Of a DNA stretch of 64,000 nt, positions 33,686 through 55,101 are shown one piece after another. The notes below the pieces were generated by a model that saw only the letters and a program-made list of their open reading frames with translations, had not been told where the DNA came from and did no database searches. Each line of letters opens with the position of its first letter. Position 1 is the first letter of the stretch. Location: contig CAZRTH010000001.1 in assembly GCA_964602975.1 (NCBI GenBank), positions 5,385 to 69,384 on the forward strand. The letters run 5' to 3'. The DNA comes from an uncultured Candidatus Saccharibacteria bacterium (lineage in GTDB: Bacteria; Patescibacteriota; Minisyncoccia; Phycocordibacterales; JBBTRF01). The translations under genes and the position numbers were made by a program.

Positions 33686-34222
33686 ATGAAAACGTTCACT
33701 CCCATCACTGCGGCCGTTTTGGCCATGCTCGCTTTTGTCGGATCTACTTGGCGAGCTGGCGCCCAGCAAGCGCCTGCTCAGCCGGCCGCTGCAGCAGACA
33801 GCTTTTACGTCCTCACCAACAAGATCGAGTGGCTGTGCTCGCCGGCCATCCTCGGACCGCTCGCGACGAACGACGTGGCCTACACCGTGAAGAACATCCA
33901 AAGCAATGTCTGCGGGGTCTTCGTGATCTCCTATCCGACAAAACTGCCGGCGAAGACGCCCATCATCGTCGAGCGGCTGGATGACCTGCGAAGCTTCAGC
34001 TTCTATTTGAAAGTGGTGAAGGAAGCCAGCATTCAAGGCGGTCCACCGAGCGAATATGTTGATGGAGCGATTGTCGTTCTAGAACCTTCCAAGCCGGAAG
34101 AGGGAAAGAACATTGCCTACGTGAAGGTTGGGAAGATCTTCTACACCGGCCCGACTGGCATTCAATTCGGCCGTATTTCCAGCGAAACCTTCCATCTTCG
34201 ACGATACGGCACCAAGCCGTGA
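33686..34222 (+). CDS. secreted hypothetical protein (signal peptide), high GC
   Basis: MKTFTPITAAVLAMLAFVGSTWRAGAQQ signal peptide; no domain recognised. Confidence 0.55.
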   Translation: MKTFTPITAAVLAMLAFVGSTWRAGAQQAPAQPAAAADSFYVLTNKIEWLCSPAILGPLATNDVAYTVKNIQSNVCGVFVISYPTKLPAKTPIIVERLDDLRSFSFYLKVVKEASIQGGPPSEYVDGAIVVLEPSKPEEGKNIAYVKVGKIFYTGPTGIQFGRISSETFHLRRYGTKP

Positions 34223-34323
34223 TCAAGGACATTTGGTTCGCTAAGTCATACAGTCTGCGCCGCTCGCTCCCCGCGAGCGGCGCTTCTTTTTTTGCTTCAG
34301 CCAAATAAGAAAATAAGAAAAGC

Positions 34324-34345
34324 CCGGCAGTTGCCTGCAGGGCTT
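34324..34345 (-). terminator. terminator hairpin homologous to 32053..32078 (shared core ggcagttgcctgc)
   Basis: 9-bp stem with one mismatch; the minus strand is followed by a UUUUCUUAUUUU tract. Confidence 0.55.
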
Positions 34346-34377
34346 CGAGTTGTCGGACCGATTATTCGCTTCGAGGG

Positions 34378-34893
34378 TTACTCTTCGCAACCATTGCCGC
34401 CGTTACGGGCCAGACGCTCGCGTTCGCTCTGGATGCGCCGGGCCAGCACCTCGCCGAAGGAAACCGCTGTGCCGCCATTGAGCATACGAAGCATGGCCGC
34501 CATGGAGTCGGTCTCCTCGTTGGACTCGTGCTCGATGACGATGTGCCAGTCCACACGGAGGCCCAAATCGTCCTTCTTGAGCTTCGCGCCGATCTCGCCT
34601 TCGACCTCGACCCAGAAGAGCTGCATGGCAGTTTCGGTGAGGTTTCCCAGGTGCTTCCGTAGGTGGTTGTAGGCCTCCATCTCGGACGGATCTTTCGGCA
34701 ACGGCACTCCGAGAGCCCGCTGCTTGAACTCCATGCCGAGCCGGAAGAGTTCCTTCGCCATCTGGGAGGTGACGATGTGAACACACTTCTCGCCGAGCGG
34801 GTTGATGGGCTCGAGCGGGCGGAACAAGGCGCGGCCTTCGGAGGTCTTGCCCTTGTAGATGCGCGCGATCTCGTCGGCGAAGTCCTTTGAGCC
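34378..34893 (-). pseudogene. 5'-truncated paralog B of ORF 32114..32839 (possibly still expressed from the TTG at 34827)
   Basis: In-frame homology to paralog A (GSKDFADEIARIYKGKTSEGRALFRPLEP...) starts at the first sense codon after a TGA stop at 34894..34896. There is no ATG, only a TTG at 34827. The region further upstream is unrelated. Confidence 0.5.
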
Positions 34894-34973
34894 TCATTTT
34901 AAGGCTCCGTATTCCCGCTCTTTTATCCCCACTCTCCCTGCTCTGATTGGCGGATATTCGGTACAATGGAGGC

Positions 34974-35435
34974 ATGCGGAACACCTCAGGCTTGACTCTT
35001 GTTGAAATAATTCTCGTAGTAGCTATCGTGGGCATGATTGCCGCCCTCGGGAGCGTCTCTTTCAGCACAGTGACAGCGCGGCAGGCTCTGGACAAAAATA
35101 CCGACGCAGTGGTAGCGGTACTCGATCAGGCTCGCTCCTACACCACTTCTGCCAAAGCCGCCACCGTCTATGGGGTGCGCCTTCTTTCGACCGGCCCAGT
35201 ACTCTTTACCGGCACCACCTACAACTCCTCCGATACTTCAAACGCGCCCTTTGTCCTCGACCCGCGTCTTTCGATCTCCAATATCTCGCTGAATGGGGCA
35301 GGGCAGGATGTGATCTTCAACAAACTCACCGGTACGACCACCCAGTATGGCTCTTTCCGTGTCACTCTCACGAACACCCCGACATCATACCGAACCGTCA
35401 CTATTTATCAGACCGGCATTGTTGAGGCGCAATAA
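34974..35435 (+). CDS. type IV pilin-like / pseudopilin (prepilin N-terminus)
   Basis: N-terminal SGLTLVEIILVVAIVGMIAALG (G-[FL]-TLxE hydrophobic helix). Confidence 0.7.
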   Translation: MRNTSGLTLVEIILVVAIVGMIAALGSVSFSTVTARQALDKNTDAVVAVLDQARSYTTSAKAATVYGVRLLSTGPVLFTGTTYNSSDTSNAPFVLDPRLSISNISLNGAGQDVIFNKLTGTTTQYGSFRVTLTNTPTSYRTVTIYQTGIVEAQ

Positions 35436-35436
35436 T

Positions 35437-36000
35437 ATGTCGAATATACTGAATATGCCAAATTTCCAAAACACCGAAATCAAAACTGCAAAGCTGCGCC
35501 CAGCCCACCCCGCTTGCACGACCCGATCAGCAGGCTTCGGCTTGGTAGAGGTGATGGTCGCCGTCGGCATCATCGGCATCACTTCAGTCGCCATTTTCAA
35601 TGTGTATACAGCATATCTGCGCGCTGAATTGAACAATGTAAAAGCAGTGAAAGCGGCCTTTCTGATGGAAGAGGGGCTCGAAGCAGTGCGCCTGCTCCGC
35701 GACACGAGCTGGTCCTCCTTGATCGCGCCTGTCACGGCGAGCACTACGCAATATTTGAATTGGACCGGATCGGCTTGGCAATTCACCAGTACTCCGCAAA
35801 TGATCGATACGCGCTACGCTCGCACAGTAGTATTCACTTCTGTTTATCGTGATAGCAACAATCGCATTGCCGCCACCGGTACACTGGACCCAAACACTCG
35901 CGGCTTCACGGTGACGGTCGCTTGGCCGGATGACAACACCTTGCTCTCCACTTCCACGAAGCAGATCTCGAGCTATATCACCAACCTCTATGGCAATTAA
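35437..36000 (+). CDS. type IV minor pilin-like protein
   Basis: AGFGLVEVMVAVGIIGITSVAIF prepilin-type N-terminus; start moved to the internal Met ahead of the motif. Confidence 0.7.
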   Translation: MSNILNMPNFQNTEIKTAKLRPAHPACTTRSAGFGLVEVMVAVGIIGITSVAIFNVYTAYLRAELNNVKAVKAAFLMEEGLEAVRLLRDTSWSSLIAPVTASTTQYLNWTGSAWQFTSTPQMIDTRYARTVVFTSVYRDSNNRIAATGTLDPNTRGFTVTVAWPDDNTLLSTSTKQISSYITNLYGN

Positions 36001-36505
36001 CCCTCAAAAAATGTGCGGCTTCTCGCTGGTGGAAATGATCATCTACCTCGCGATCCTTACCGTCGTCACGATTTTTTTGGTGAATGGAATCTCCGCACTC
36101 ACCAAGAGCTACGCGGATATTCGCCTAGCGAAGGCCGTGTCGTCGTCCGCCGGAGTTGCTCTGCAGCGTATTGTGCACGAGACTCGCCAAGCGACCTCGT
36201 TCGATCTCGGTCAAAGCACCTTCGGATCCAATCCAGGTCAGCTCACTCTTGTCACCACCAACGGCAGTGGCGCCACCAGCACGGTCCGGTTCTTTGTGAG
36301 CAACGGGCTGCTGCGAGTGAGTGTTGCCGGCGTCGATCAGGGGCCGCTCACCCTTTCGGGAGCTTCTGTTACCAATTTCACCTTGTCGCTGCTCCAGAAC
36401 AGCATTTCCAACGGCGTGCGAATCACCCTCACGGTGCAGAGCAGCTTCGGCAACAAGACGCGCACCGAGACTTTTTACACTACCGCTGTCACCCGGAATA
36501 TGTGA
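35990..36505 (+). CDS. type IV minor pilin-like protein
   Basis: CGFSLVEMIIYLAILTVVTIFLV prepilin-type N-terminus. Confidence 0.7.
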   Translation: MAINPQKMCGFSLVEMIIYLAILTVVTIFLVNGISALTKSYADIRLAKAVSSSAGVALQRIVHETRQATSFDLGQSTFGSNPGQLTLVTTNGSGATSTVRFFVSNGLLRVSVAGVDQGPLTLSGASVTNFTLSLLQNSISNGVRITLTVQSSFGNKTRTETFYTTAVTRNM

Positions 36506-36517
36506 TGATTATCTAGC

Positions 36518-38845
36518 ATGAAAATGTTCTTAAAAATGACAAAGTCCTGTCGCCCCCACCCAAGCCACCAAGCAGGGCAGGTAATGATCGCCTCGGTCAT
36601 CTTTTTCCTTGGTATTGGCTTGGCGATCGTTGCCGGAGTGTCGCAGACGACTCTTCGAGATATCCAGTCTAGCCAAAATCTGCTGAAATCTCGCGAGAGC
36701 TACGCAGTGGCCGAAGCATTGCACGAGGATGTTCTCTATCGTTTGCAAAATGGCATGACCGTCAGCACAAATGAGAGTCTATCGCTCAATGGCTACAGTG
36801 CCTCCACTACGATCGCCGATGTATCAGGTGGCAAGCAGGTGACCAGTGCCGGCGACCGGGACAATTTTATTAAAAAGGTGAGCTCCTTTGTGCTCACCGG
36901 CAGCGGAGTATCCTTCAATTACGGCGTGCAAGCAGGGGAAGGGGGAATCGAACTGCAAAACACTTCTTCTATCCAAGGCAATGTCTATTCAAACGGCCCT
37001 GTCACCGGCTCGGCAGCAGTGAACAACGGCAACGCCTCGAATCCCGGTCTTTCCGGATCGGTGACCGTTTCAGGTGCTTCGCAGGGCGGCGCGGCCAGCT
37101 TTGATTTTTCCGCCGATGGTCGCTATGCCTATGTTCTGAGCTCGAATAGCTTTCAGATCGTGGATCTCAATGATCCAACCAATCCGGCAGTCGTTGGGTC
37201 GGTAACCACCAACTACACCTCGAATCCGTACCACAATACCTTGATCACTTCCGGAAATTATTTGTATATCACTTCTCTCAACTCAAGCAATGTGGATATC
37301 TACAACATCGCTTCGCCGACCAGCCCTTCGCTCGTGAGTCAGCTACCGCTCGGCAGTCCAGGAAAGAATCCGCGCATCGCCAACGGCTACCTCTACGTGC
37401 CGAATTTCAACAGCAACACGACAAAGATCGTCAATATTTCCAATCCACTCCAAGCAAGTGTTGTAGGCACGATCACCACCGTCAGCAGTCCAGTATGGGT
37501 GACTATTTCCGGAAATTATCTCTACATCGGGCATGACCTGAACGGCAACTATGGCAGCATTTACGCGTACACGCTCGACAATCCAGCCAGCCCCACATAC
37601 GCAGGGGTGATGCCTGCCGGTACGATGTATAGCCGCACCTATCCGCCCTATATCGCCAGCTCGTACATGTACGTGATGTCATATATTCTGAGCGGCATGT
37701 ATGTGGTGAGCCTATCGAATCCGGCTGTGCCGACGGTGGTGTACGCTACTGCCGCGAATAGCATTTTGGAGCCGCAATCTATCGACGGTAATGCCGGCTA
37801 TCTGTATATTGGCGTCTACAATAGCCACAACACCAACCAGCGTTCGCTCGATACCTGGAGCTTGTCTTCTCCGGCCGCACCAGTGAAAATTTCCAGCAAT
37901 GGTATCTCCAGCAGCAACGGCGGACCTACGACGGTGAAGGTGAAAAACGGTGCAGTCTTTCTACTCAACGGCGCAAACAATGCTTCTAGCGCCTTCCAAT
38001 CCTACGGCGCGATGGGTTCTGGTGGAAATACGATCACAGGCACAGTGGTTTCGGCTGGGCCAACAGGTAGCGTGACTCGTATCAACGCCGCGAGCACCGC
38101 CGGTTCTATGTACGCCAAGACGATCACCGATTCGGTCATCACCAAGGACGCCTACTATCAAACCATCTCTGGTTCGAGTGTGGGAGGCGTGTCCTATCCG
38201 GGCAGCGCCAATCAAGCGACTTCGAGTTTTCCGATCTCCGACGAAACGCTTGATCAGTGGGAAGCTGATGCTGCCGCTGGAGGAGTGATCACAACTCCGT
38301 GCCCGTATCAGGTGACTTCGACGGTGACCCTCGGTCCAGTGAAGATAAACTGCGATCTGGAGATCAGCAACGATGGCGTGGTGAACTTAGCAGGGATGGT
38401 CTGGGTGAAGGGGGATGTTTCCATGAAGAATACTTCGACGGTTAACATCAGCCCCTCCATCTCCAGCCATACCGCCGCGATTATCTCCGATGATCCCGCT
38501 AATCGCAACACTAAAGGAAAGATGGATCTCTCGAACTCAGCGACCTTCCTCGGTTCCGGAAATAATTCGTATGTCATGCTTGTCTCGCGCAACACAAGCG
38601 CCTCGGCCGGCGGCGGGGAAGTTGGCATTGAAATCTCCAACTCCATCAATGGAAAGGCCCTCATGTACGCTCCTTATGGCTTGATCGAGATTCAAAACAA
38701 CGTCAGCTTGAAGGAGGCCACCGGCTGGAAGCTTCGTTTAAAGAATAGCTCTTCAGTGATATACGAATCCGGCCTAGCCAATCTGCTCTTTACCTCTGGC
38801 CCGTCTGGCGGATATCAGATCGATTCGTGGCAGGAGATTCAATAA
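36518..38845 (+). CDS. large pilus-associated surface protein with LVIVD-type beta-propeller repeats (PilX/PilY1-like position)
   Basis: 775 aa; N-terminal TM; at least 5 repeats of GNYLYI...(V/I)D..N(I/L)SNP..P..V (LVIVD-like); Ser/Thr/Asn-rich. Confidence 0.7.
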   Translation: MKMFLKMTKSCRPHPSHQAGQVMIASVIFFLGIGLAIVAGVSQTTLRDIQSSQNLLKSRESYAVAEALHEDVLYRLQNGMTVSTNESLSLNGYSASTTIADVSGGKQVTSAGDRDNFIKKVSSFVLTGSGVSFNYGVQAGEGGIELQNTSSIQGNVYSNGPVTGSAAVNNGNASNPGLSGSVTVSGASQGGAASFDFSADGRYAYVLSSNSFQIVDLNDPTNPAVVGSVTTNYTSNPYHNTLITSGNYLYITSLNSSNVDIYNIASPTSPSLVSQLPLGSPGKNPRIANGYLYVPNFNSNTTKIVNISNPLQASVVGTITTVSSPVWVTISGNYLYIGHDLNGNYGSIYAYTLDNPASPTYAGVMPAGTMYSRTYPPYIASSYMYVMSYILSGMYVVSLSNPAVPTVVYATAANSILEPQSIDGNAGYLYIGVYNSHNTNQRSLDTWSLSSPAAPVKISSNGISSSNGGPTTVKVKNGAVFLLNGANNASSAFQSYGAMGSGGNTITGTVVSAGPTGSVTRINAASTAGSMYAKTITDSVITKDAYYQTISGSSVGGVSYPGSANQATSSFPISDETLDQWEADAAAGGVITTPCPYQVTSTVTLGPVKINCDLEISNDGVVNLAGMVWVKGDVSMKNTSTVNISPSISSHTAAIISDDPANRNTKGKMDLSNSATFLGSGNNSYVMLVSRNTSASAGGGEVGIEISNSINGKALMYAPYGLIEIQNNVSLKEATGWKLRLKNSSSVIYESGLANLLFTSGPSGGYQIDSWQEIQ

Positions 38846-38934
38846 TTGACAGATCATGTAAAACAAAAGTCCGGACCTCCCACTGGAGTCCGGAACTAGA
38901 AAGAATACTGATCTTTTGACCGAAACCGTGCTGA

Positions 38935-39318
38935 CTATCGCCGACTTCCGGCAATGACCGTGCCGTGGCGGTAGAAGCGCTTCATCGCACCCTTGTGCCG
39001 ATCGCCATTGTTACGGAATGGCTCCCTGACCTTCTTCGGCCCGATACTGACCTTTCCGCCGCCCATGCGGCGCTGTTCGAGCCGTTCTTGGTGACGTAGC
39101 CGCTTCGCCTTTTCGTGAGCCTTGCGCCGCATTTTCGCCATGTTGGTCTTGAGGCCGTATTTGCCCTGTGGAAGTTCAGGGCGGGGGACCTGCTTGTGAG
39201 CCCGCGAAGGTGCCGGCGGCGTATTCTGCCGCGACTTCGCCTTGATCGGGCTGTGCGAGGTGTGCATGATGGCCGAGTCGGAAGACCCGCTGCCGCTGTC
39301 AGTTGCCGAGATGCTCAT
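38935..39318 (-). CDS. hypothetical highly basic protein (127 aa)
   Basis: Lys/Arg-rich; high-GC region with ORFs on both strands, so the call is tentative. Confidence 0.35.
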   Translation of the reverse strand: MSISATDSGSGSSDSAIMHTSHSPIKAKSRQNTPPAPSRAHKQVPRPELPQGKYGLKTNMAKMRRKAHEKAKRLRHQERLEQRRMGGGKVSIGPKKVREPFRNNGDRHKGAMKRFYRHGTVIAGSRR

Positions 39319-39394
39319 AATCTATTGTGCCTTGATGCGTGGCTTGTTTACTGCTCGCATCTATTGTGTAGCCAATGAAAATGCTATCACAGTG

Positions 39395-39721
39395 TTATCT
39401 CTCTGACAAATCGGAACGATCGGCGGCTGGACCGTACCGTTCCGGCCGCTCGTCTTGGCGGTCTTCGTGATCCTTGGTCCAATCCCTTCGTGTGTCCGGC
39501 TCACGCAGTTTTCGAGCGAAGCGATTCCTTTCCGGACTCGGTTCGGAACTCGTTTCTGAATTCGCTAAGGGCTTCCGGTACTCAGGAGCATTTTTGACTA
39601 CTTCTCGCATGCGCTCGAACGCCTCTTTTGCTTCAGTGGCCTTTCGAGCTGTTTCGGCCGCTTTCGCCGTCTTTTTATCGGCGTTTTCGTCAAACAGCAG
39701 GATTTGTTCAGCTCCGGACAT
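39395..39721 (-). CDS. hypothetical charged protein (108 aa)
   Basis: Between the yqeY-like gene and the basic ORF on the same strand; no domain. Confidence 0.35.
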   Translation of the reverse strand: MSGAEQILLFDENADKKTAKAAETARKATEAKEAFERMREVVKNAPEYRKPLANSETSSEPSPERNRFARKLREPDTRRDWTKDHEDRQDERPERYGPAADRSDLSER

Positions 39722-39735
39722 GTGTGTATTGAGAA

Positions 39736-40194
39736 TTATTTCACTAAGCTCTCAACGACTTCCTTCACCAGTGCGCCGTCTGCTTTGCCTTTGAATTCTT
39801 TCATCAACGAGCCCATGAATTGACCTAGCTTTGCCTTGTCGAGTGTGCCGACACCGACAAAATCGATCTTTGCTTTGACGATTTTTTCGATCTCCGCACG
39901 GCTCATCATCTGCGACAGAAAGGTTTCGAGGATCGCAAGCTCGGATTTTTCCGCGGCCACCAGGTCCTGACGGCCGCCTTTGCCAAATTGCTCGATCGAA
40001 TCTTTGCGCTGTTTCACTGCTCGTTTGATCAGCGCCATTACCTCCTCGTCGGGGAGGTGTGGTCCGGTGAGTTTCTTCGCGACGAGTTCGTTCATAAAGG
40101 AAGCCAGTAGCCCGCGGAGCACGGAGAGCCGCACTGCATCCTTCTTCATCATCGCCTCCTTCATCTTTGTCTGAATGGTTTCGTGTATGTTCAT
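39736..40194 (-). CDS. GatB/YqeY-domain protein
   Basis: MNIHETIQTKMKEAMMKKDAVRLSVLRGLLASF...KQRKDSIEQFGKGGRQDLVAAEKSELAILETFL matches the YqeY family closely; start at the internal ATG 40194. Confidence 0.8.
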   Translation of the reverse strand: MNIHETIQTKMKEAMMKKDAVRLSVLRGLLASFMNELVAKKLTGPHLPDEEVMALIKRAVKQRKDSIEQFGKGGRQDLVAAEKSELAILETFLSQMMSRAEIEKIVKAKIDFVGVGTLDKAKLGQFMGSLMKEFKGKADGALVKEVVESLVK

Positions 40195-44365: not shown

Positions 44366-45850
44366 CTACTTCTTCTCTAACTTGCTTCCCTCGTTTGTGT
44401 CTATAACATCGTAGCCTTTTTCCTTCAGCATCGCTCGAAGTTCATCTGAACGCTTGAAATCTTTTTGCTGACGAGCGAGGTCGCGGTCTTTTTGGAGCTG
44501 GAGAATATCAGGCGGAGCAGTGAGTGGCTGAACTGTCGAGGTCGCCAAAAGCTTGAGGCCGAGCGCGTGATTGAATTCTTTGATCGCACTCAATTTTTCT
44601 TCGTTGCTGATCGAGACGTCTTTCAACATATCCCACATAGTCGCGATCGCTTTTGGCGTGTTGAGGTCGTCATTAATCAAGTCGACGAAAGCAGTTTTGT
44701 AGGTTGCGGCAGTTGCCGTAGCTGCTGTAGGTGACCGTAATGCCTGTACCTGCTCAAGTAGTCTTTCATACGCCGTCTGCGCGCCTTTGACGGCCTCCCA
44801 GGTGAAATTCATCTGCGTGTGATATGAAGCGCCGAGTAGCCAATAGCGAAAACCGAGCGGCGTGACGTCGTGTGAGGTAAGGTCTTTCAAGTAGATAGTG
44901 TTGCTAAGCGACTTTGAGATCTTTTGTCCGTCAATGAGTAGATGGGCGTTGTGGAGCCAGAAGCGGGCGAATGGCCGGCCGGTCGAGGCTTCAGATTGAG
45001 CGATCTCGTTGTTGTGATGAGTGGGGATGTGGTCGATACCGCCGGTGTGGATGTCGATTGTCCGGCCGAGCAGCTTCATGGCCATCGCCGAACACTCGAT
45101 ATGCCAGCCTGGAAAGCCGACGCCCCACGGCGATGGCCATTCCTGATCGCGTTTCTGTGTGACGGTTCCGCTTGTCGCCGTTTCATTTGTTGTATTTGAA
45201 AACTTCCATAACGCAAAGTCGGTCAGATTTCGCTTTTCTGCGTTTGTGGCGACGCGATGACCTTCAGCTAGGCCCGCAAGGTCGATATTGCCAAGCCTGC
45301 CGTATTTGGGAAATTTGACCGTGTCGAAATAGATACCGTCCGAGGTTTTGTAGGTGAACCCGTGCTTCTCGAGCTGTTCGATGAGGGCGATTTGCTCGGG
45401 AATATAGCCAGTTGCGCGAGGGAATAGGGTAGCAGGGGAGTGGACACCGTTTTTTGTTGGATCGCTTTCGATATTTAGCTCCTTCAACCCCTCAAAAAAC
45501 TCTCGTGTGTACTCATCCGAAATTTCTTTCGAAGATCGCTGTTGTTTTTGAGCGGCGAGCTGCATTTTGTCTTCGCCCTCGTCGCCGTCGCCGACAAGGT
45601 GGCCGACATCCGTGATATTGATGACCTGCTTCACCGCATACCCATTGAGTTCAAGCACGCGCTTCAATGTGTCGGCAAAAATATACGAACGATAGTTGCC
45701 GACATGGAGTGACTGGTACACCGTCGGTCCGCAGTTGTACATCGTGACCGTTTTCGCGGCGAGACCGATCCTGCTCAAAAAGCCTTTGCCTAAAGGGGCA
45801 AATGTTTCTTTCTGTTTGCTCAGTGTGTTGTAGAGGCGAATGTCAGACAT
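44366..45850 (-). CDS. cysS: cysteinyl-tRNA synthetase
   Basis: HIGH (SLHVGN) and KMSKS (KISKSLSN) motifs; 494 aa. Confidence 0.9.
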   Translation of the reverse strand: MSDIRLYNTLSKQKETFAPLGKGFLSRIGLAAKTVTMYNCGPTVYQSLHVGNYRSYIFADTLKRVLELNGYAVKQVINITDVGHLVGDGDEGEDKMQLAAQKQQRSSKEISDEYTREFFEGLKELNIESDPTKNGVHSPATLFPRATGYIPEQIALIEQLEKHGFTYKTSDGIYFDTVKFPKYGRLGNIDLAGLAEGHRVATNAEKRNLTDFALWKFSNTTNETATSGTVTQKRDQEWPSPWGVGFPGWHIECSAMAMKLLGRTIDIHTGGIDHIPTHHNNEIAQSEASTGRPFARFWLHNAHLLIDGQKISKSLSNTIYLKDLTSHDVTPLGFRYWLLGASYHTQMNFTWEAVKGAQTAYERLLEQVQALRSPTAATATAATYKTAFVDLINDDLNTPKAIATMWDMLKDVSISNEEKLSAIKEFNHALGLKLLATSTVQPLTAPPDILQLQKDRDLARQQKDFKRSDELRAMLKEKGYDVIDTNEGSKLEKK

Positions 45851-53402: not shown

Positions 53403-53894
53403 ATGTTTCAATTCTCAACAATCATAGTCACCCTCTTTACCGCGGCCTCCGTCCAGGGTGCGAACATGTCTGTTCTCGCCTTGGCGCAACAGAACACCTC
53501 CACTACCAGCGGCATTGGAAAGGAGCTCAGTCTTATTAATACACCTGTAGCTTCAACAGACCGGGCATCTGAAGTGGAAACTTCGGTCCGCGCGTACTTC
53601 TCGGATATTCCGGCACTTATCGAGATCGCTCGTTGCGAGTCTGGCTTTCGCCATACCGACAAGAGCGGCAACATTCTCCGAGGTACCCAAACTACTGATG
53701 ACATCGGAGTCATGCAGATCAACGAGTACTACCACGGCGAAAGCGCCAAGCGTCTTGGCTACGACATTACCAGCCTCAACGGCAACATGGCTTTTGCTCG
53801 ACATCTCTATGGTGTCTATGGCACCGATCCATGGAAGGCTTCAGCGAAGTGCTGGAAGAAGCCGACTCCCGGTTTACTCGCGGAGCGTAAGTAA
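53403..53894 (+). CDS. secreted lytic-transglycosylase-like (SLT/lysozyme-like) protein
   Basis: Signal peptide; IARCESGFRH...DDIGVMQINEYYH resembles the SLT ES-x-F / GLMQI motifs. Confidence 0.55.
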   Translation: MFQFSTIIVTLFTAASVQGANMSVLALAQQNTSTTSGIGKELSLINTPVASTDRASEVETSVRAYFSDIPALIEIARCESGFRHTDKSGNILRGTQTTDDIGVMQINEYYHGESAKRLGYDITSLNGNMAFARHLYGVYGTDPWKASAKCWKKPTPGLLAERK

Positions 53895-53950
53895 AAGCCG
53901 CAAAAGCGATGCGTGAGGTGGGGTAGGCAAGCCTATCATCTTTCACAAAA

Positions 53951-53978
53951 CCACCCGACTGGGTGGTTTTGTGTTGAA
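53951..53978 (+). terminator. rho-independent terminator
   Basis: aaaaccaccc-gact-gggtggtttt then gtgtt. Confidence 0.65.
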
Positions 53979-54078
53979 AGCAAAAGTATCGATCGGTGTA
54001 TAAATTGTTTCGCAGTAAAATGTTCTAGGTCATTGGTCGAATTGGTTAAGCGAGTAATGCTATAAGTATAGAAAATCA

Positions 54079-54155
54079 GTGATCAAGAAATCGCAAAGAA
54101 AGTATCAAGAAAGGGAAAAGATTTGATCAAGAACTGATAAAGATTTAATAAAGAA
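54079..54155. repeat. iteron-like short direct repeats (ATCAAGAA x3; AAGATTTnATnAAGAA x2) in an AT-rich gap
   Basis: tgatcaagaaatc / gtatcaagaaagg / tgatcaagaactg spaced about 23 bp; aagatttgatcaagaa and aagatttaataaagaa 22 bp apart. Confidence 0.4.
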
Positions 54156-54203
54156 AATCTCGGCCATCTTGAGGCTACTCTCAGAGGGAAGTGCTATTGA
54201 TGA

Positions 54204-54229
54204 TGTCGCACAATATATCTTTTGCGACA
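54204..54229. other. 26-bp imperfect palindrome with 6-bp AT spacer (dif/recombinase-site-like or operator)
   Basis: tgtcgcacaa-tatatc-ttttgcgaca; arms 9/10 complementary. Confidence 0.3.
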
Positions 54230-54387
54230 TAGAGCCTAAGGGGCCGAAAGAGCGGCCTTCGGTTGGAGCGAATGAATCTTTAAAAATAAAAAAGCGCTGG
54301 ATACTTCCCTTGCTTTGGCCGCTAGGAAAATATTCAAACGCTGTTTGTTCGCCCCGATCGAACCAATACGTGCACTTTCGTCCTCAA

Positions 54388-55101
54388 TCATTTCCACCAG
54401 CGTTGATACATCAGGTCCGCCAGCCAGTAGATCTGCCGATTGAACACAAATGCCATTGCTGACAGGACGATGCCGCTCAGATACATCTTGGCGGCCACTT
54501 CGCTGTTCATGTAGCCTAGGGCGCGGATATTGAACAGTGGGATGCTCAACATGGCGGACGCCTGAAGGAAGAACACCAACATGGGCCGCAAGGACACGAT
54601 CTCCCAGGCCTTTTCCACGATGGCGGAGACGGAGTTGGTGGTCGGAGCGACGAATGAGCCGATCAAAGGGGTCAGCACCGAGTGCTTTTCAAGGAACCCT
54701 TGAATTTCTTTCCCGAAGAGGGTAGTGACGACTCCCCCGCCGGCCATTACGACAAACAGCAGGGTCAGCAGTGGCATAAAGTTGTTCCAATAGACCAGCG
54801 ACCTGCTTCCCCATTGCTCAAAGTCTTTTTTCTCGCCGAAGGTGCCGACGAGCGCGAGAATGATCGCGAGCATCAACAGAAGCGGACCGTTTTGGATCCA
54901 GAAGCGTCTGTCGATGTTCAGCGGCATGATCCGGAACAAGCCGGTCAGCAGCAGGACAAAGCTGGTTACAACCAACATGAGATTTGTTGCAGTAATATTG
55001 GGTTTCAAGAAGAGCCTTTCGCGTGTTTTTACAGTGGTTGCGGTTCTAGGATGTTTCAAATGGACTGCCGAAACTATAGCCGAAAAGCCCCACCCCGTCA
55101 C
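54388..55101 (-). CDS. hypothetical polytopic membrane protein
   Basis: 237 aa, 6-7 TM; no motif recognised. Confidence 0.5.
   Translation of the reverse strand: MTGWGFSAIVSAVHLKHPRTATTVKTRERLFLKPNITATNLMLVVTSFVLLLTGLFRIMPLNIDRRFWIQNGPLLLMLAIILALVGTFGEKKDFEQWGSRSLVYWNNFMPLLTLLFVVMAGGGVVTTLFGKEIQGFLEKHSVLTPLIGSFVAPTTNSVSAIVEKAWEIVSLRPMLVFFLQASAMLSIPLFNIRALGYMNSEVAAKMYLSGIVLSAMAFVFNRQIYWLADLMYQRWWK

What the first reader, a model, noticed from the sequence alone, without database searches (positions are those of the whole stretch)
53900..54390. 500-bp AT-rich non-coding gap between convergent genes with iteron-like repeats and a dif-like 10-6-10 palindrome
A gap this large is unusual between two gene 3' ends. 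It contains a clean terminator (53951..53978), three ATCAAGAA boxes and two AAGATTTnATnAAGAA boxes at about 22-bp phasing, and the imperfect palindrome TGTCGCACAA-TATATC-TTTTGCGACA (54204..54229).

The 10-6-10 layout with an AT spacer resembles XerC/D dif sites or other tyrosine-recombinase cores. Phased short repeats resemble iterons or regulator arrays. A small RNA gene is another possibility.
- Inference: the dif or iteron function.
Basis: partly seen in the sequence, partly recalled or inferred. Interest (0 to 1): 0.5.

Follow-up and report, generated by a model that had tools for sequence, protein, structure and literature searches.

The report
Chromosome dimer-resolution (dif) site of Patescibacteria
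The palindrome in this gap is very probably the chromosome's dif site, where recombinases untangle sister chromosomes at the replication terminus, and the same 28-bp sequence marks that spot in hundreds of candidate-phyla-radiation bacteria; the nearby "iteron-like" repeats are a private quirk of this lineage.

Summary
The gap is 493 bp (53895-54387, GC 0.42 against 0.52 for the window) and lies between two convergent genes, each with its own terminator.

The palindrome is really a 28-bp 11-6-11 site at 54203-54230. The 7 bases the search left free complete the palindrome, and the DNA outside the 28 bp is not conserved.

The site sits where GC skew flips from + to - (74 of 78 genome loci, 32 of 39 metagenome loci, and the window). 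Genes converge on it. A polar heptamer, AGGG[GA]AG, also switches strand there (20 of 21 copies in the window point at the site; 421:30 pooled).

In one related contig a 5.4-kb inovirus-like element with no integrase lies between two copies of the site. The site shares 17 of 28 bases with E. coli and B. subtilis dif.

Verdict: a Xer/dif site at the replication terminus. The dif reading is supported. The iteron and sRNA readings are not: the 22-nt repeats are real but specific to this lineage. No paper in the library describes dif for this phylum.

The parts
54203..54230 (.). dif site, 28 bp. On the + strand it reads ATGTCGCACAA | TATATC | TTTTGCGACAT. In the phylum consensus orientation (- strand) it reads ATGTCGCAAAA | GATATA | TTGTGCGACAT.
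   Evidence: The 11-6-11 layout has 10/11 self-complementary arm positions and is unique in the window. The 21-mer is exact in at least 120 species genomes. It shares 17/28 bases with E. coli and B. subtilis dif.
54203..54213 (-). Better-conserved arm (consensus TTGTGCGAC[A/G][T/C]); provisionally the XerD-type arm.
   Evidence: with the other arm fixed, positions GCGAC are 92-99% conserved and only 3/119 sites have a wholly different arm. The rule that the XerD arm is the more conserved comes from PMC3025954. The assignment is an inference.
54214..54219 (-). 6-bp central region GATATA (TATATC on +), the presumed strand-exchange region.
   Evidence: It was fixed in both scans, so nothing is known of its variation among the retrieved sites. 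Its role is inferred by analogy with dif (PMC5357621).
54220..54230 (-). More variable arm (consensus [A/g/t][T/a/c]GTCG[C/T]AAAA); provisionally the XerC-type arm.
   Evidence: GTCG is present in 92/119 sites and 27/119 lack it, several with an unrelated arm. Window against L002: C->G at one position.
54185..54191 (+). Last KOPS-like motif (AGGGAAG) of the left replichore, 11 nt before dif and pointing at it.
54304..54310 (-). First KOPS-like motif (AGGGAAG) of the right replichore, 73 nt from dif and pointing at it. It lies inside the terminator hairpin and is conserved in L002.
53940..53980 (+). Intrinsic terminator of the SLT-like gene. It looks bidirectional, with an A-run before and a T-run after a 13-bp perfect stem.
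   Evidence: -22.4 kcal/mol, z -4.8. The stem is conserved and the loop changed in L002.
54281..54342 (-). Intrinsic terminator of the minus-strand membrane-protein gene: hairpin 54342->54293, then UUUUUUAUUUUU.
   Evidence: The equivalent hairpin plus U-run is in L002 (-29.1 kcal/mol, z -5.6), with both arms changed between the two sequences.
54080..54161 (+). Degenerate tandem repeat, 22 nt x about 3.5, purine-rich on the leading strand. It holds the three ATCAAGAA boxes (54082, 54104, 54126). Function unknown; specific to this lineage.
   Evidence: L002 lacks exactly 22 nt here. No counterpart is seen in the other loci tested.
53403..53894 (+). Left flanking gene: secreted SLT-like lytic transglycosylase, ending 308 bp before dif.
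   Evidence: PF01464, E 0.0017, below cut-off. Homologues lie near the site in several other loci.
54388..54978 (-). Right flanking gene: 196-aa membrane protein with no known family, ending 157 bp after dif.

Best explanation
Window 54203-54230 is the chromosomal dif site of a Patescibacteria (CPR) bacterium, and the gap around it is the junction of the two replichores.

Proposed mechanism (inferred by analogy with XerCD/dif-FtsK, not shown here):
- Xer-family tyrosine recombinases encoded elsewhere in the genome bind the two 11-bp arms and exchange strands across the 6-bp centre. This turns a chromosome dimer back into monomers at cell division.
- A septal FtsK-type translocase is steered to the site by the polar heptamer AGGG[GA]AG. 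In the window that heptamer is almost always on the + strand to the left of the site and always on the - strand to the right.

The rest of the gap is ordinary:
- the intrinsic terminators of the two convergent genes;
- AT-rich spacer;
- a lineage-specific 22-nt tandem repeat with no demonstrable function.

Shown here: the sequence, its conservation, its single-copy status, its position at the skew, gene-orientation and polar-motif switch, and its use as an integration site by an integrase-less phage in a relative.

Inferred: which proteins act on it, which arm binds which recombinase, and the dependence on FtsK.
For: 1. Conservation.
All named ones but one (a MAG labelled Pseudomonadales) are Patescibacteria lineages, and each has one locus. 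My estimate of the chance expectation in 596 Gb is about 0.3.
- The 7 bases not fixed by that search complete the inverted repeat (GTCG in 92/119), while the flanks show no conservation.

2. Terminus position.
- GC skew is higher on the left than on the right in 74/78 genome loci (means +0.057 and -0.061, p = 1e-17) and in 32/39 metagenome loci.
- In the window, cumulative G-C peaks at 54.2-55.2 kb. Skew is +0.039 left of the site and -0.020 right of it.

3. Gene orientation. In 88 loci the site is intergenic in 83. The flanking genes are convergent in 59/86. Coding is 90% on + to the left and 80% on - to the right.

4. Polar motif.
- AGGGGAG is 196:9 and AGGGAAG 211:21 leading:lagging in 895 kb of pooled flanks. 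They are the most skewed heptamers beyond what base composition predicts.
- The skew follows replication rather than transcription: 38:4 inside counter-oriented genes. Only 2 of 421 copies lie just upstream of a start codon.
- It is replicated in metagenome loci at 301:23.
- In the window, 15/16 copies left of the site are on + and 5/5 right of it are on -. The switch falls between 54191 and 54304.
- This meets the two dif-region criteria of PMC3384302: at least 1 per 40 kb and at least 90% skew.

5. Architecture. It is 11-6-11 = 28 bp, as dif is defined (PMC5357621, PMC2958812). It shares 17/28 bases with E. coli and B. subtilis dif (reference sequences from PMC3025954).

6. A natural recombination event. 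In L129 a 5.4-kb element lies between a 27/28 copy and a hybrid copy of the site. It encodes a Zot-like protein and a rolling-circle Rep but no integrase. The related contig L132 has the flanks joined at one intact site.

7. Recombinases. XerC/XerD-like recombinases exist in genomes carrying the site (L029: E = 5e-68 and 2e-67).
Against: - No xer or ftsK gene lies in the 64-kb window, and the rest of this genome is not available. The presence of the enzymes in this organism is therefore assumed.
- Only about 10 kb lies to the right of the site in the window, and there is a local skew reversal at 34-40 kb. On its own the window's skew is suggestive rather than decisive.
- The invariance of 21 of the 28 positions among retrieved loci is partly by construction of the searches.
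- The inner palindrome (positions 7-12 against 17-22) has 4 complementary pairs. Kono et al. required more than four. Here the symmetry lies mainly in the outer arm positions, unlike classical dif.
- Position relative to oriC could not be checked in any closed genome, because only 8-kb pieces could be fetched.
- No biochemical or genetic evidence exists.
Confidence: 0.9

Rival explanations
1. The site is mainly an attachment site or end of a mobile element (for example the attB or att remnant of filamentous phages) and has no role in resolving chromosome dimers.
For: An inovirus-like element is integrated at it in L129. Nine IMG/VR contigs carry the 21-mer. 27/119 sites have a divergent left arm, as hybrid att sites would.
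Against: Most sites, including the one in the window, have no second copy and no element nearby. The site is single-copy, is found across distant lineages with unrelated flanks, and always lies at the skew and gene-orientation switch. That is the behaviour of a host site which elements exploit (IMEX), as with CTX-phi at V. cholerae dif (PMC5357621).
Confidence: 0.04
2. The palindrome is an operator for a dimeric transcription factor that regulates a neighbouring gene or an unannotated small transcript in the gap.
For: It is a nearly perfect inverted repeat in AT-rich DNA. Several short blocks in the gap (53974-54075) are conserved with L002 and include a weak -35/-10-like pair (read by eye).
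Against: It lies between two gene 3' ends (59/86 loci convergent). The neighbouring genes differ completely between lineages while the 28 bp stay the same. There is one copy per assembly and none elsewhere in the window. No operator is known to track the replication terminus.
Confidence: 0.02
3. The gap encodes a small structured RNA, with the palindrome and neighbouring hairpins as its helices.
For: The 331-nt region folds somewhat better than shuffles (z about -2.3). The region lies between two terminators.
Against: The z-score is the same on both strands and is accounted for by the terminators and the palindrome. There is no Rfam match, even at E<=10. Conservation across the phylum stops sharply at the 28 bp. 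The only substitution in the palindrome in L002 disrupts a pair. The 41-aa ORF starting at the palindrome has a stop in L002.
Confidence: 0.02
4. The 22-nt repeats are iterons or a phased protein-binding array, belonging to a replication origin, plasmid remnant or terminus-organising protein.
For: Three exact ATCAAGAA boxes at 22-nt spacing, out of five copies in 64 kb. AA/TT autocorrelation peaks at lags 11, 22 and 33 in this flank. L002 keeps a similar A(A/G)GAAA periodicity.
Against: Skew and gene polarity are those of a terminus, not an origin. There are no DnaA boxes in the gap and no Rep or recombinase gene nearby. L002 has one unit fewer and degenerate boxes. No shared repeat family appears next to the same site in 112 other loci, and no phasing in 235. 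Slippage in non-coding AT-rich DNA explains the pattern.
Confidence: 0.05

Closest known systems
XerC/XerD-dif of Escherichia coli, and CodV/RipX-dif of Bacillus subtilis
   Same: The site is 28 bp with two 11-bp arms around a 6-bp AT-rich centre. It is single-copy, intergenic and at the GC-skew shift point. One arm is better conserved than the other. The recombinase genes are unlinked. It shares 17/28 bases with both reference sites, with shared core CGCA.AA / TATA / TT.TG..A..T.
   Different: The outer arm sequences differ (TGCGACAT instead of GTTAAAT). The arms are almost perfectly symmetric, 10/11 against 6/11. Whether one or two recombinases act here is unknown.
Archaeal XerA-dif (Thermococcales)
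   Same: Highly symmetric 11-6-11 site (9/11 in P. abyssi), conserved across a large clade, unlinked to the recombinase gene, and found at the switch of skewed words. Some tyrosine recombinases near the site (L009, L062) score best against the XerA model.
   Different: Only 9-11/28 bases are shared with the P. abyssi site. XerA works without FtsK, whereas here a KOPS-like polar motif converges on the site.
Single-recombinase systems XerS-difSL (streptococci and lactococci) and XerH-difH (Helicobacter, Campylobacter)
   Same: They perform the same function. Their sites depart from the canonical consensus.
   Different: In those systems the recombinase gene is adjacent to the site, and difSL is 31 bp. 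Here the site is 28 bp and a Xer-like gene lies within a few kb in only about 5 of about 240 loci, which is roughly the chance rate.
KOPS / SRS FtsK-orienting polar sequences (GGGNAGGG in E. coli, GAGAAGGG in B. subtilis, GAAGAAG in L. lactis)
   Same: AGGG[GA]AG is a G-rich purine 7-mer with 93-96% leading-strand skew near dif, a frequency of about 1 per 2-3 kb, a strand switch exactly at dif, and a skew independent of gene orientation.
   Different: The sequence is not identical to any described KOPS. Genome-wide over-representation and binding by the FtsK gamma domain were not tested. A copy tends to lie within 60-80 nt of one particular arm.
IMEX: integrative mobile elements exploiting Xer (CTX-phi, VGJ-phi, TLC-phi, gonococcal GGI)
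   Same: In L129 a 5.4-kb element with a Zot-like protein and a rolling-circle Rep, but no integrase, is bracketed by a full and a hybrid copy of the site.
   Different: This element is in a related metagenomic contig, not in the window. The window's site is clean.

Membership tests
Xer/dif chromosome dimer resolution site | 28 bp: two 11-bp arms in imperfect inverted repeat around a 6-bp central region | tested here: met
   54203-54230 is 11-6-11 with 10/11 complementary arm positions. Definition from PMC5357621 and PMC2958812.
Xer/dif chromosome dimer resolution site | Sequence similarity to characterised dif sites | tested here: met
   17/28 identical to both E. coli and B. subtilis dif. 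Archaeal dif was accepted with 14-18/28. The inner-palindrome criterion of Kono et al. (more than 4 pairs at positions 7-12 against 17-22) is only borderline, at 4 pairs.
Xer/dif chromosome dimer resolution site | Single occurrence per chromosome | tested here: inconclusive
   Unique in the 64-kb window at up to 3 mismatches. One locus per assembly in 120 assemblies. The complete genome of this organism was not available, and the scan was for an exact 21-mer only.
Xer/dif chromosome dimer resolution site | Location at the GC-skew shift point / replichore junction (terminus) | tested here: met
   Window: cumulative G-C maximum at 54.2-55.2 kb. 74/78 and 32/39 loci show a + to - switch at the site. 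Genes converge on it. Distance from oriC was not testable.
Xer/dif chromosome dimer resolution site | Conserved across related genomes while the flanks are not; one arm more variable than the other | tested here: met
Xer/dif chromosome dimer resolution site | Cognate Xer-family tyrosine recombinase(s) encoded in the same genome | tested here: inconclusive
   None in the window. XerC/D-like ORFs are present in several site-bearing loci, e.g. L029, L032, L148, L160, L241. The rest of this genome was not seen.
Xer/dif chromosome dimer resolution site | Site-specific recombination actually occurs at the site | not testable with these tools
   Indirect only: an integrase-less inovirus-like element is bracketed by full and hybrid sites in L129, against an empty site in L132. 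It needs in vitro or in vivo assays.
KOPS-type FtsK-orienting polar sequence (AGGG[GA]AG) | At least 90% leading-strand skew and at least 1 per 40 kb in the dif region, converging on dif | tested here: met
   421:30 pooled, 301:23 in the replicate, 20/21 in the window; about 1 per 2-3 kb. Criteria from PMC3384302.
KOPS-type FtsK-orienting polar sequence (AGGG[GA]AG) | Genome-wide over-representation and skew; recognition by the FtsK gamma domain | not testable with these tools
   Only a window-level count is available: 21 observed against 13.3 expected, with 1 of 100 shuffles as high. No whole genomes and no protein assay.
Iterons (origin or plasmid replication repeats) | Array of direct repeats of about 17-22 bp | tested here: met
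   22 nt x 3.5 at 54080-54161.
Iterons (origin or plasmid replication repeats) | Adjacent rep gene and/or DnaA boxes; skew and gene polarity of an origin | tested here: not met
   No Rep or recombinase gene nearby. No DnaA box in the gap. Polarity is that of a terminus.
Small non-coding RNA gene | Match to a known family, or conserved structure with compensatory changes and own promoter and terminator | tested here: not met
   No Rfam match. Fold z-scores are strand-symmetric. The change in the palindrome breaks a pair. Transcription was not testable.

The most novel reading that the evidence does not exclude
This is the first description of the chromosome dimer-resolution apparatus of the Patescibacteria/CPR. 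It would comprise:
- a phylum-wide, unusually symmetric dif (ATGTCG[C/T]AAAA-GATATA-TTGTGCGACAT), whose near-perfect dyad could mean that a single Xer recombinase acts on both arms, as in archaea and epsilonproteobacteria;
- a new FtsK-guiding motif, AGGG[GA]AG, often placed within about 60 nt of one arm;
- filamentous-phage-like IMEX elements that exploit the site;
- in about 10% of lineages, a perfect DnaA box (AAGTTATCCACAG) beside it, hinting at an unknown link between DnaA and the terminus.
Probability: 0.35. Interest if true: 0.6.

Novelty: new member of a known kind. Interest (0 to 1): 0.45.

Why it matters
dif sites are expected in any bacterium with a circular chromosome, so its existence here is not a surprise.

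What is useful is a defined 28-bp marker for the replication terminus, together with a polar motif that reveals replichore direction. This applies to a huge, mostly uncultured phylum known almost only from fragmented metagenome-assembled genomes. These markers can:
- help check and orient assemblies;
- locate termini where GC skew is weak;
- reveal phage-like elements that integrate without their own integrase;
- give a concrete substrate for the first biochemical study of Xer/FtsK in these reduced, episymbiotic bacteria.

The high symmetry of the site raises a testable question: does one recombinase act here, or two?

Tried and rejected
- Small protein. The 41-aa minus-strand ORF 54105-54230, which starts at the palindrome, is interrupted by a stop in L002. 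The 97-aa + ORF 54169-54462 has no Pfam hit and overlaps the neighbouring gene. Both rejected.
- Known RNA. Rfam at E<=10 on the gap and at gathering threshold on the whole window gave only noise (a sub-threshold RNAI-like hit on the terminator hairpin) and one tRNA. ARAGORN found no tmRNA.
- Exact-protein look-up of the SLT-like gene found nothing. The membrane protein has only two relatives in 5.8 billion proteins, which gave L001-L003.
- Sigma-70 and terminator consensus scans missed both real terminators and gave nothing above shuffles.
- ATCAAGAA as a polar, KOPS-like word: only 5 copies in 64 kb and no skew. Rejected.
- AGGGRAG as a ribosome-binding site: only 2 of 421 copies lie within 20 nt upstream of a start. 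Rejected.
- Linkage of a recombinase gene to the site (XerS/XerH style): about 5 of about 240 loci, roughly the chance rate. Rejected.
- General DNA-bending or tandem-repeat feature next to dif: not found.
- Second dif-like site or IMEX in the window: none.
- Position of the site relative to oriC in the closed genome CP060229.1 could not be judged, because only an 8-kb slice was available.
- Literature searches for the sequence itself, and for dif/Xer/KOPS together with Patescibacteria, Saccharibacteria or candidate phyla radiation, found nothing relevant.
Full report
**1. The observation**

The non-coding gap runs from 53895 to 54387 (493 bp). Its GC content is 0.42 against 0.52 for the window, and 0.376 in the core.

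The flanking genes are:
- a + strand gene for a secreted SLT-like lytic transglycosylase, 53403-53894, with a weak PF01464 hit;
- a - strand gene for a 196-aa membrane protein of no known family, 54388-54978.

- The hairpin at 53944-53973 is a perfect 13-bp stem with a T-run (-22.4 kcal/mol, z = -4.8).
- The three ATCAAGAA boxes lie at 54082, 54104 and 54126, exactly 22 nt apart. They are three of only five copies in 64 kb.
- TRF reports the repeat as 22 nt x 3.5 copies.
- The palindrome is exact at 54204-54229. It extends one pair on each side to an 11-6-11 unit, 54203-54230, ATGTCGCACAA-TATATC-TTTTGCGACAT. Ten of eleven arm positions are complementary.
- It is unique in the window at up to 3 mismatches. 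Apart from the terminator stem it is the only such palindrome in the window.

It is a hairpin at 54342->54293 followed by UUUUUUAUUUUU.

**2. Close relatives**

The membrane protein has only two relatives in the large protein collection. Their contigs gave a syntenic gap in a relative with 86% amino-acid identity (L002/L001) and a 100%-identical fragment (L003).

In the alignment:
- The gap is patchily conserved, but the palindrome block is 27/28 identical. The single change (C->G) breaks a stem pair rather than compensating. This argues for a DNA-sequence constraint rather than an RNA-structure constraint.
- Both terminators are kept, and both arms of the minus-strand hairpin differ between the two sequences.
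- L002 lacks exactly 22 nt inside the repeat array, which is one repeat unit.
- The 41-aa ORF that begins at the palindrome is stopped in L002.

**3. Phylum-wide conservation**

Every hit came from a different assembly.

Apart from one MAG labelled Pseudomonadales (L032), every named assembly belongs to a Patescibacteria/CPR lineage. These include Saccharibacteria, Paceibacteria, and the Nomura-, Kaiser-, Taylor-, Yonath-, Zambryski-, Harrison-, Vogel- and Moraniibacteria. I estimate that chance would give about 0.3 hits in 596 Gb.

After orienting the loci, the seven positions not fixed by the search complete the inverted repeat ([A/g/t][T/a/c]GTCG[C/T]; GTCG in 92/119). Nothing outside the 28 bp is conserved.

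A mirrored scan of metagenome contigs fixed the other arm (ATGTCGYAAAAGATATATTGT).

The consensus is therefore ATGTCG[C/T]AAAA-GATATA-TTGTGCGAC[A/G][T/C].

Wholly divergent arms are roughly ten times more common on the left (27/119 sites lack the GTCG core) than on the right (3/119 have a wholly different arm). The right arm is thus the better-conserved one. By the general rule for dif reported by Kono et al. (PMC3025954), that points to the XerD-type arm. This assignment is an inference. Known IMEX attP sites usually keep the XerC side (PMC5357621), which would point the other way.

Caveat: the invariance of the searched positions is by construction. The evidence is the number and taxonomic coherence of the hits, the free positions, and the unconserved flanks.

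**4. Position at the replichore junction**

- In 78 genome loci with at least 1.5 kb on both sides, GC skew is higher on the left than on the right in 74. The means are +0.057 and -0.061 (binomial p = 1e-17). This test does not depend on which strand is read, and its polarity is that of a terminus.
- The independent metagenome set gives 32/39.
- In the window, cumulative G-C rises from 0 to a maximum at 54.2-55.2 kb and then falls. Skew is +0.039 over the 54 kb to the left and -0.020 over the 10 kb to the right.
- Across 88 loci the site is intergenic in 83. The immediately flanking genes are convergent in 59/86. Coding capacity is 90% on the + strand to the left and 80% on the - strand to the right.
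- The median gap holding the site is 524 bp (IQR 358-747).
- No DnaA boxes occur in the window's gap.

**5. A polar motif converges on the site**

C-rich pentamers are enriched 8-11-fold in the first 80 nt beyond the right arm, with a peak at 0-60 nt. This led me to a strand-skew survey of 895 kb of pooled leading-strand flanks.
- The most skewed heptamers beyond what base composition predicts are AGGGGAG (196:9) and AGGGAAG (211:21). AAGGGAAG is 71:2.
- The skew follows replication rather than transcription: 257:10 in co-oriented genes, 38:4 in counter-oriented genes, and 126:16 in intergenic DNA.
- Only 2 of 421 copies lie within 20 nt upstream of a start codon, so this is not a ribosome-binding site.
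- The metagenome set replicates the skew at 301:23.
- In the window, AGGGRAG occurs 21 times. Of the copies left of the site, 15 of 16 are on the + strand. All 5 copies to the right are on the - strand.
- The last + copy is at 54185-54191, 11 nt from the site. The first - copy is at 54304-54310.

This meets the dif-region criteria used to predict KOPS: at least 1 per 40 kb and at least 90% skew (PMC3384302). The motif is also related in composition to GGGNAGGG, GAGAAGGG and GAAGAAG. Genome-wide over-representation and FtsK binding remain untested.

**6. Evidence that recombination happens at the site**

Nine IMG/VR contigs carry the 21-mer.

In L129, a 27/28 copy (TTGTCGTAAAAGATATATTGTGCGACAc) and a hybrid copy with a foreign left arm (TGTACAAAAAAGATATATTGTGCGACAT) bracket a 5.4-kb insert. 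In the related contig L132 the same left and right flanks meet at one intact site.

The insert encodes a Zot-like protein and a rolling-circle replication initiator, and it has no integrase. This is the signature of an integrative element exploiting Xer, like CTX-phi at V. cholerae dif. The window itself has no second site.

**7. Enzymes**

No tyrosine recombinase or FtsK-like ATPase is encoded in the 64 kb.

Xer-like recombinases do occur in some site-bearing loci. L029 scores 5e-68 against XerC and 2e-67 against XerD, both below the equivalog cut-offs. L009 and L062 score best against archaeal XerA.

A Xer gene lies within a few kb of the site in only about 5 of about 240 loci, roughly the chance rate. 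The system therefore resembles the unlinked XerCD or XerA arrangement rather than the linked XerS or XerH one. Whether one or two recombinases act could not be tested.

**8. Comparison with known dif sites**

The site has the defining 11-6-11 architecture. It shares 17/28 bases with E. coli GGTGCGCATAATGTATATTATGTTAAAT and with B. subtilis ACTTCCTAGAATATATATTATGTAAACT. For comparison, archaeal dif was accepted with 14-18/28.

It differs in two ways:
- The outer arm sequence is TGCGACAT.
- The dyad symmetry is 10/11 against 6/11 in the two model sites and 9/11 in P. abyssi.

**9. The repeats and the rest of the gap**

The 22-nt array (54080-54161) is real and purine-rich on the leading strand. 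It shows AA/TT autocorrelation at lags 11, 22 and 33.

Against a function:
- Its copy number differs between the window and its nearest relative.
- No shared repeat family is found beside the same site in 112 other loci, and no phasing in 235.
- Its context is a terminus without a rep gene or DnaA boxes.

I regard it as a lineage-specific slippage product in dispensable DNA. A local architectural or protein-binding role is not excluded (about 5%).

An sRNA is not supported. Rfam is negative, the fold scores are strand-symmetric, and there is no covariation. RNA-seq would be needed to exclude it.

**10. Organism**

The gene content and the shared synteny place the window in the Paceibacteria-type Patescibacteria. 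In many site-bearing loci gltX, an M23 peptidase gene, murG and an SLT-like gene lie near the site, at 45-60% amino-acid identity to the window's genes.

**11. Novelty**

Searches of the paper library found nothing relevant. I searched for the sequence itself and for dif/Xer/KOPS together with Patescibacteria, Saccharibacteria or candidate phyla radiation. The large 2011 dif survey predates these genomes.

The thing itself is a member of a well-known kind. What appears to be new is its sequence for this phylum, together with the associated polar motif and the IMEX element. Interest is moderate.

Noticed in passing
window 1-64000 (e.g. 2932, 3695, 10939 ... 54185 on +; 54304, 57546, 57551, 60654, 63492 on -): The heptamer AGGG[GA]AG points at the dif site in 20 of 21 copies and switches strand exactly there. 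The one exception is at 44385-44391 (-). In pooled flanks of about 120 genomes it is 421:30 leading:lagging and independent of gene orientation. It is a candidate FtsK-orienting (KOPS) motif for Patescibacteria.
   Followed up: yes
L129:2060-7519 (IMGVR_UViG_3300006564_000119), compared with L132: A 5.4-kb element encoding a Zot-like protein and a rolling-circle Rep, without an integrase, is integrated between a full and a hybrid copy of the dif site. L132 has the empty site, plus a further partial site about 5 kb away. This suggests arrays of inovirus-like IMEX elements in CPR bacteria.
   Followed up: partly
L004, L008, L021, L030, L048, L072, L076, L096, L109 (7-45 nt beyond the right arm); L020, L044 (left side, inverted): A perfect DnaA box, extended motif AAGTTATCCACAG, lies within 120 nt of the dif site in 11 of 119 genomes (0.5 expected). 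The surrounding sequence is otherwise mostly unrelated (only L004/L008 and L048/L072 share a short weak match several hundred bp away). It is absent from the window's gap. Unexplained.
   Followed up: partly
L014, L045, L108 and sites with left arms CCTACCG, ATTACCC or TAATGCA (e.g. L008, L056, L062, L116, L119, L061, L088): Some genomes have a half-site just upstream of the full site, or a completely foreign left arm. They look like hybrid att sites left by elements integrated at dif.
   Followed up: no
window 34000-40000: There is a local reversal of GC skew (-0.03 to -0.09) inside the otherwise positive left replichore. No AGGGRAG copy lies between 31126 and 41071. This may be an inverted or recently acquired segment.
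   Followed up: no
window 53974-54075: Short blocks conserved with L002 between the + terminator and the repeats: GAAAGCAAAAG.ATCGATCG.TGT.TAAA, AAAATG.TCTA.GTCAT and AAGTATAGA. They include a weak TTGAAA-N19-TATAAA pair. Their meaning is unknown. The two genomes are close, so this may be plain relatedness.
   Followed up: no
L148, L160, L241, L029, L032: In a few lineages a XerC/D-like recombinase gene lies within 0.3-2 kb of the dif site. Overall this is about the chance rate, but it may be clade-specific.
   Followed up: partly
L032 (CAZCUC010000003.1): This contig is labelled 'uncultured Pseudomonadales'. It carries the Patescibacteria dif and a Xer gene nearly identical to that of L029, so the bin is probably mislabelled or contaminated.
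   Followed up: no
L157 and one other metagenome locus: A variant site, ATGTCGCAAAAGATATATTGTATTAAAT, has a right arm (TTGTATTAAAT) that resembles the canonical bacterial XerD arm TTATGTTAAAT.
   Followed up: no
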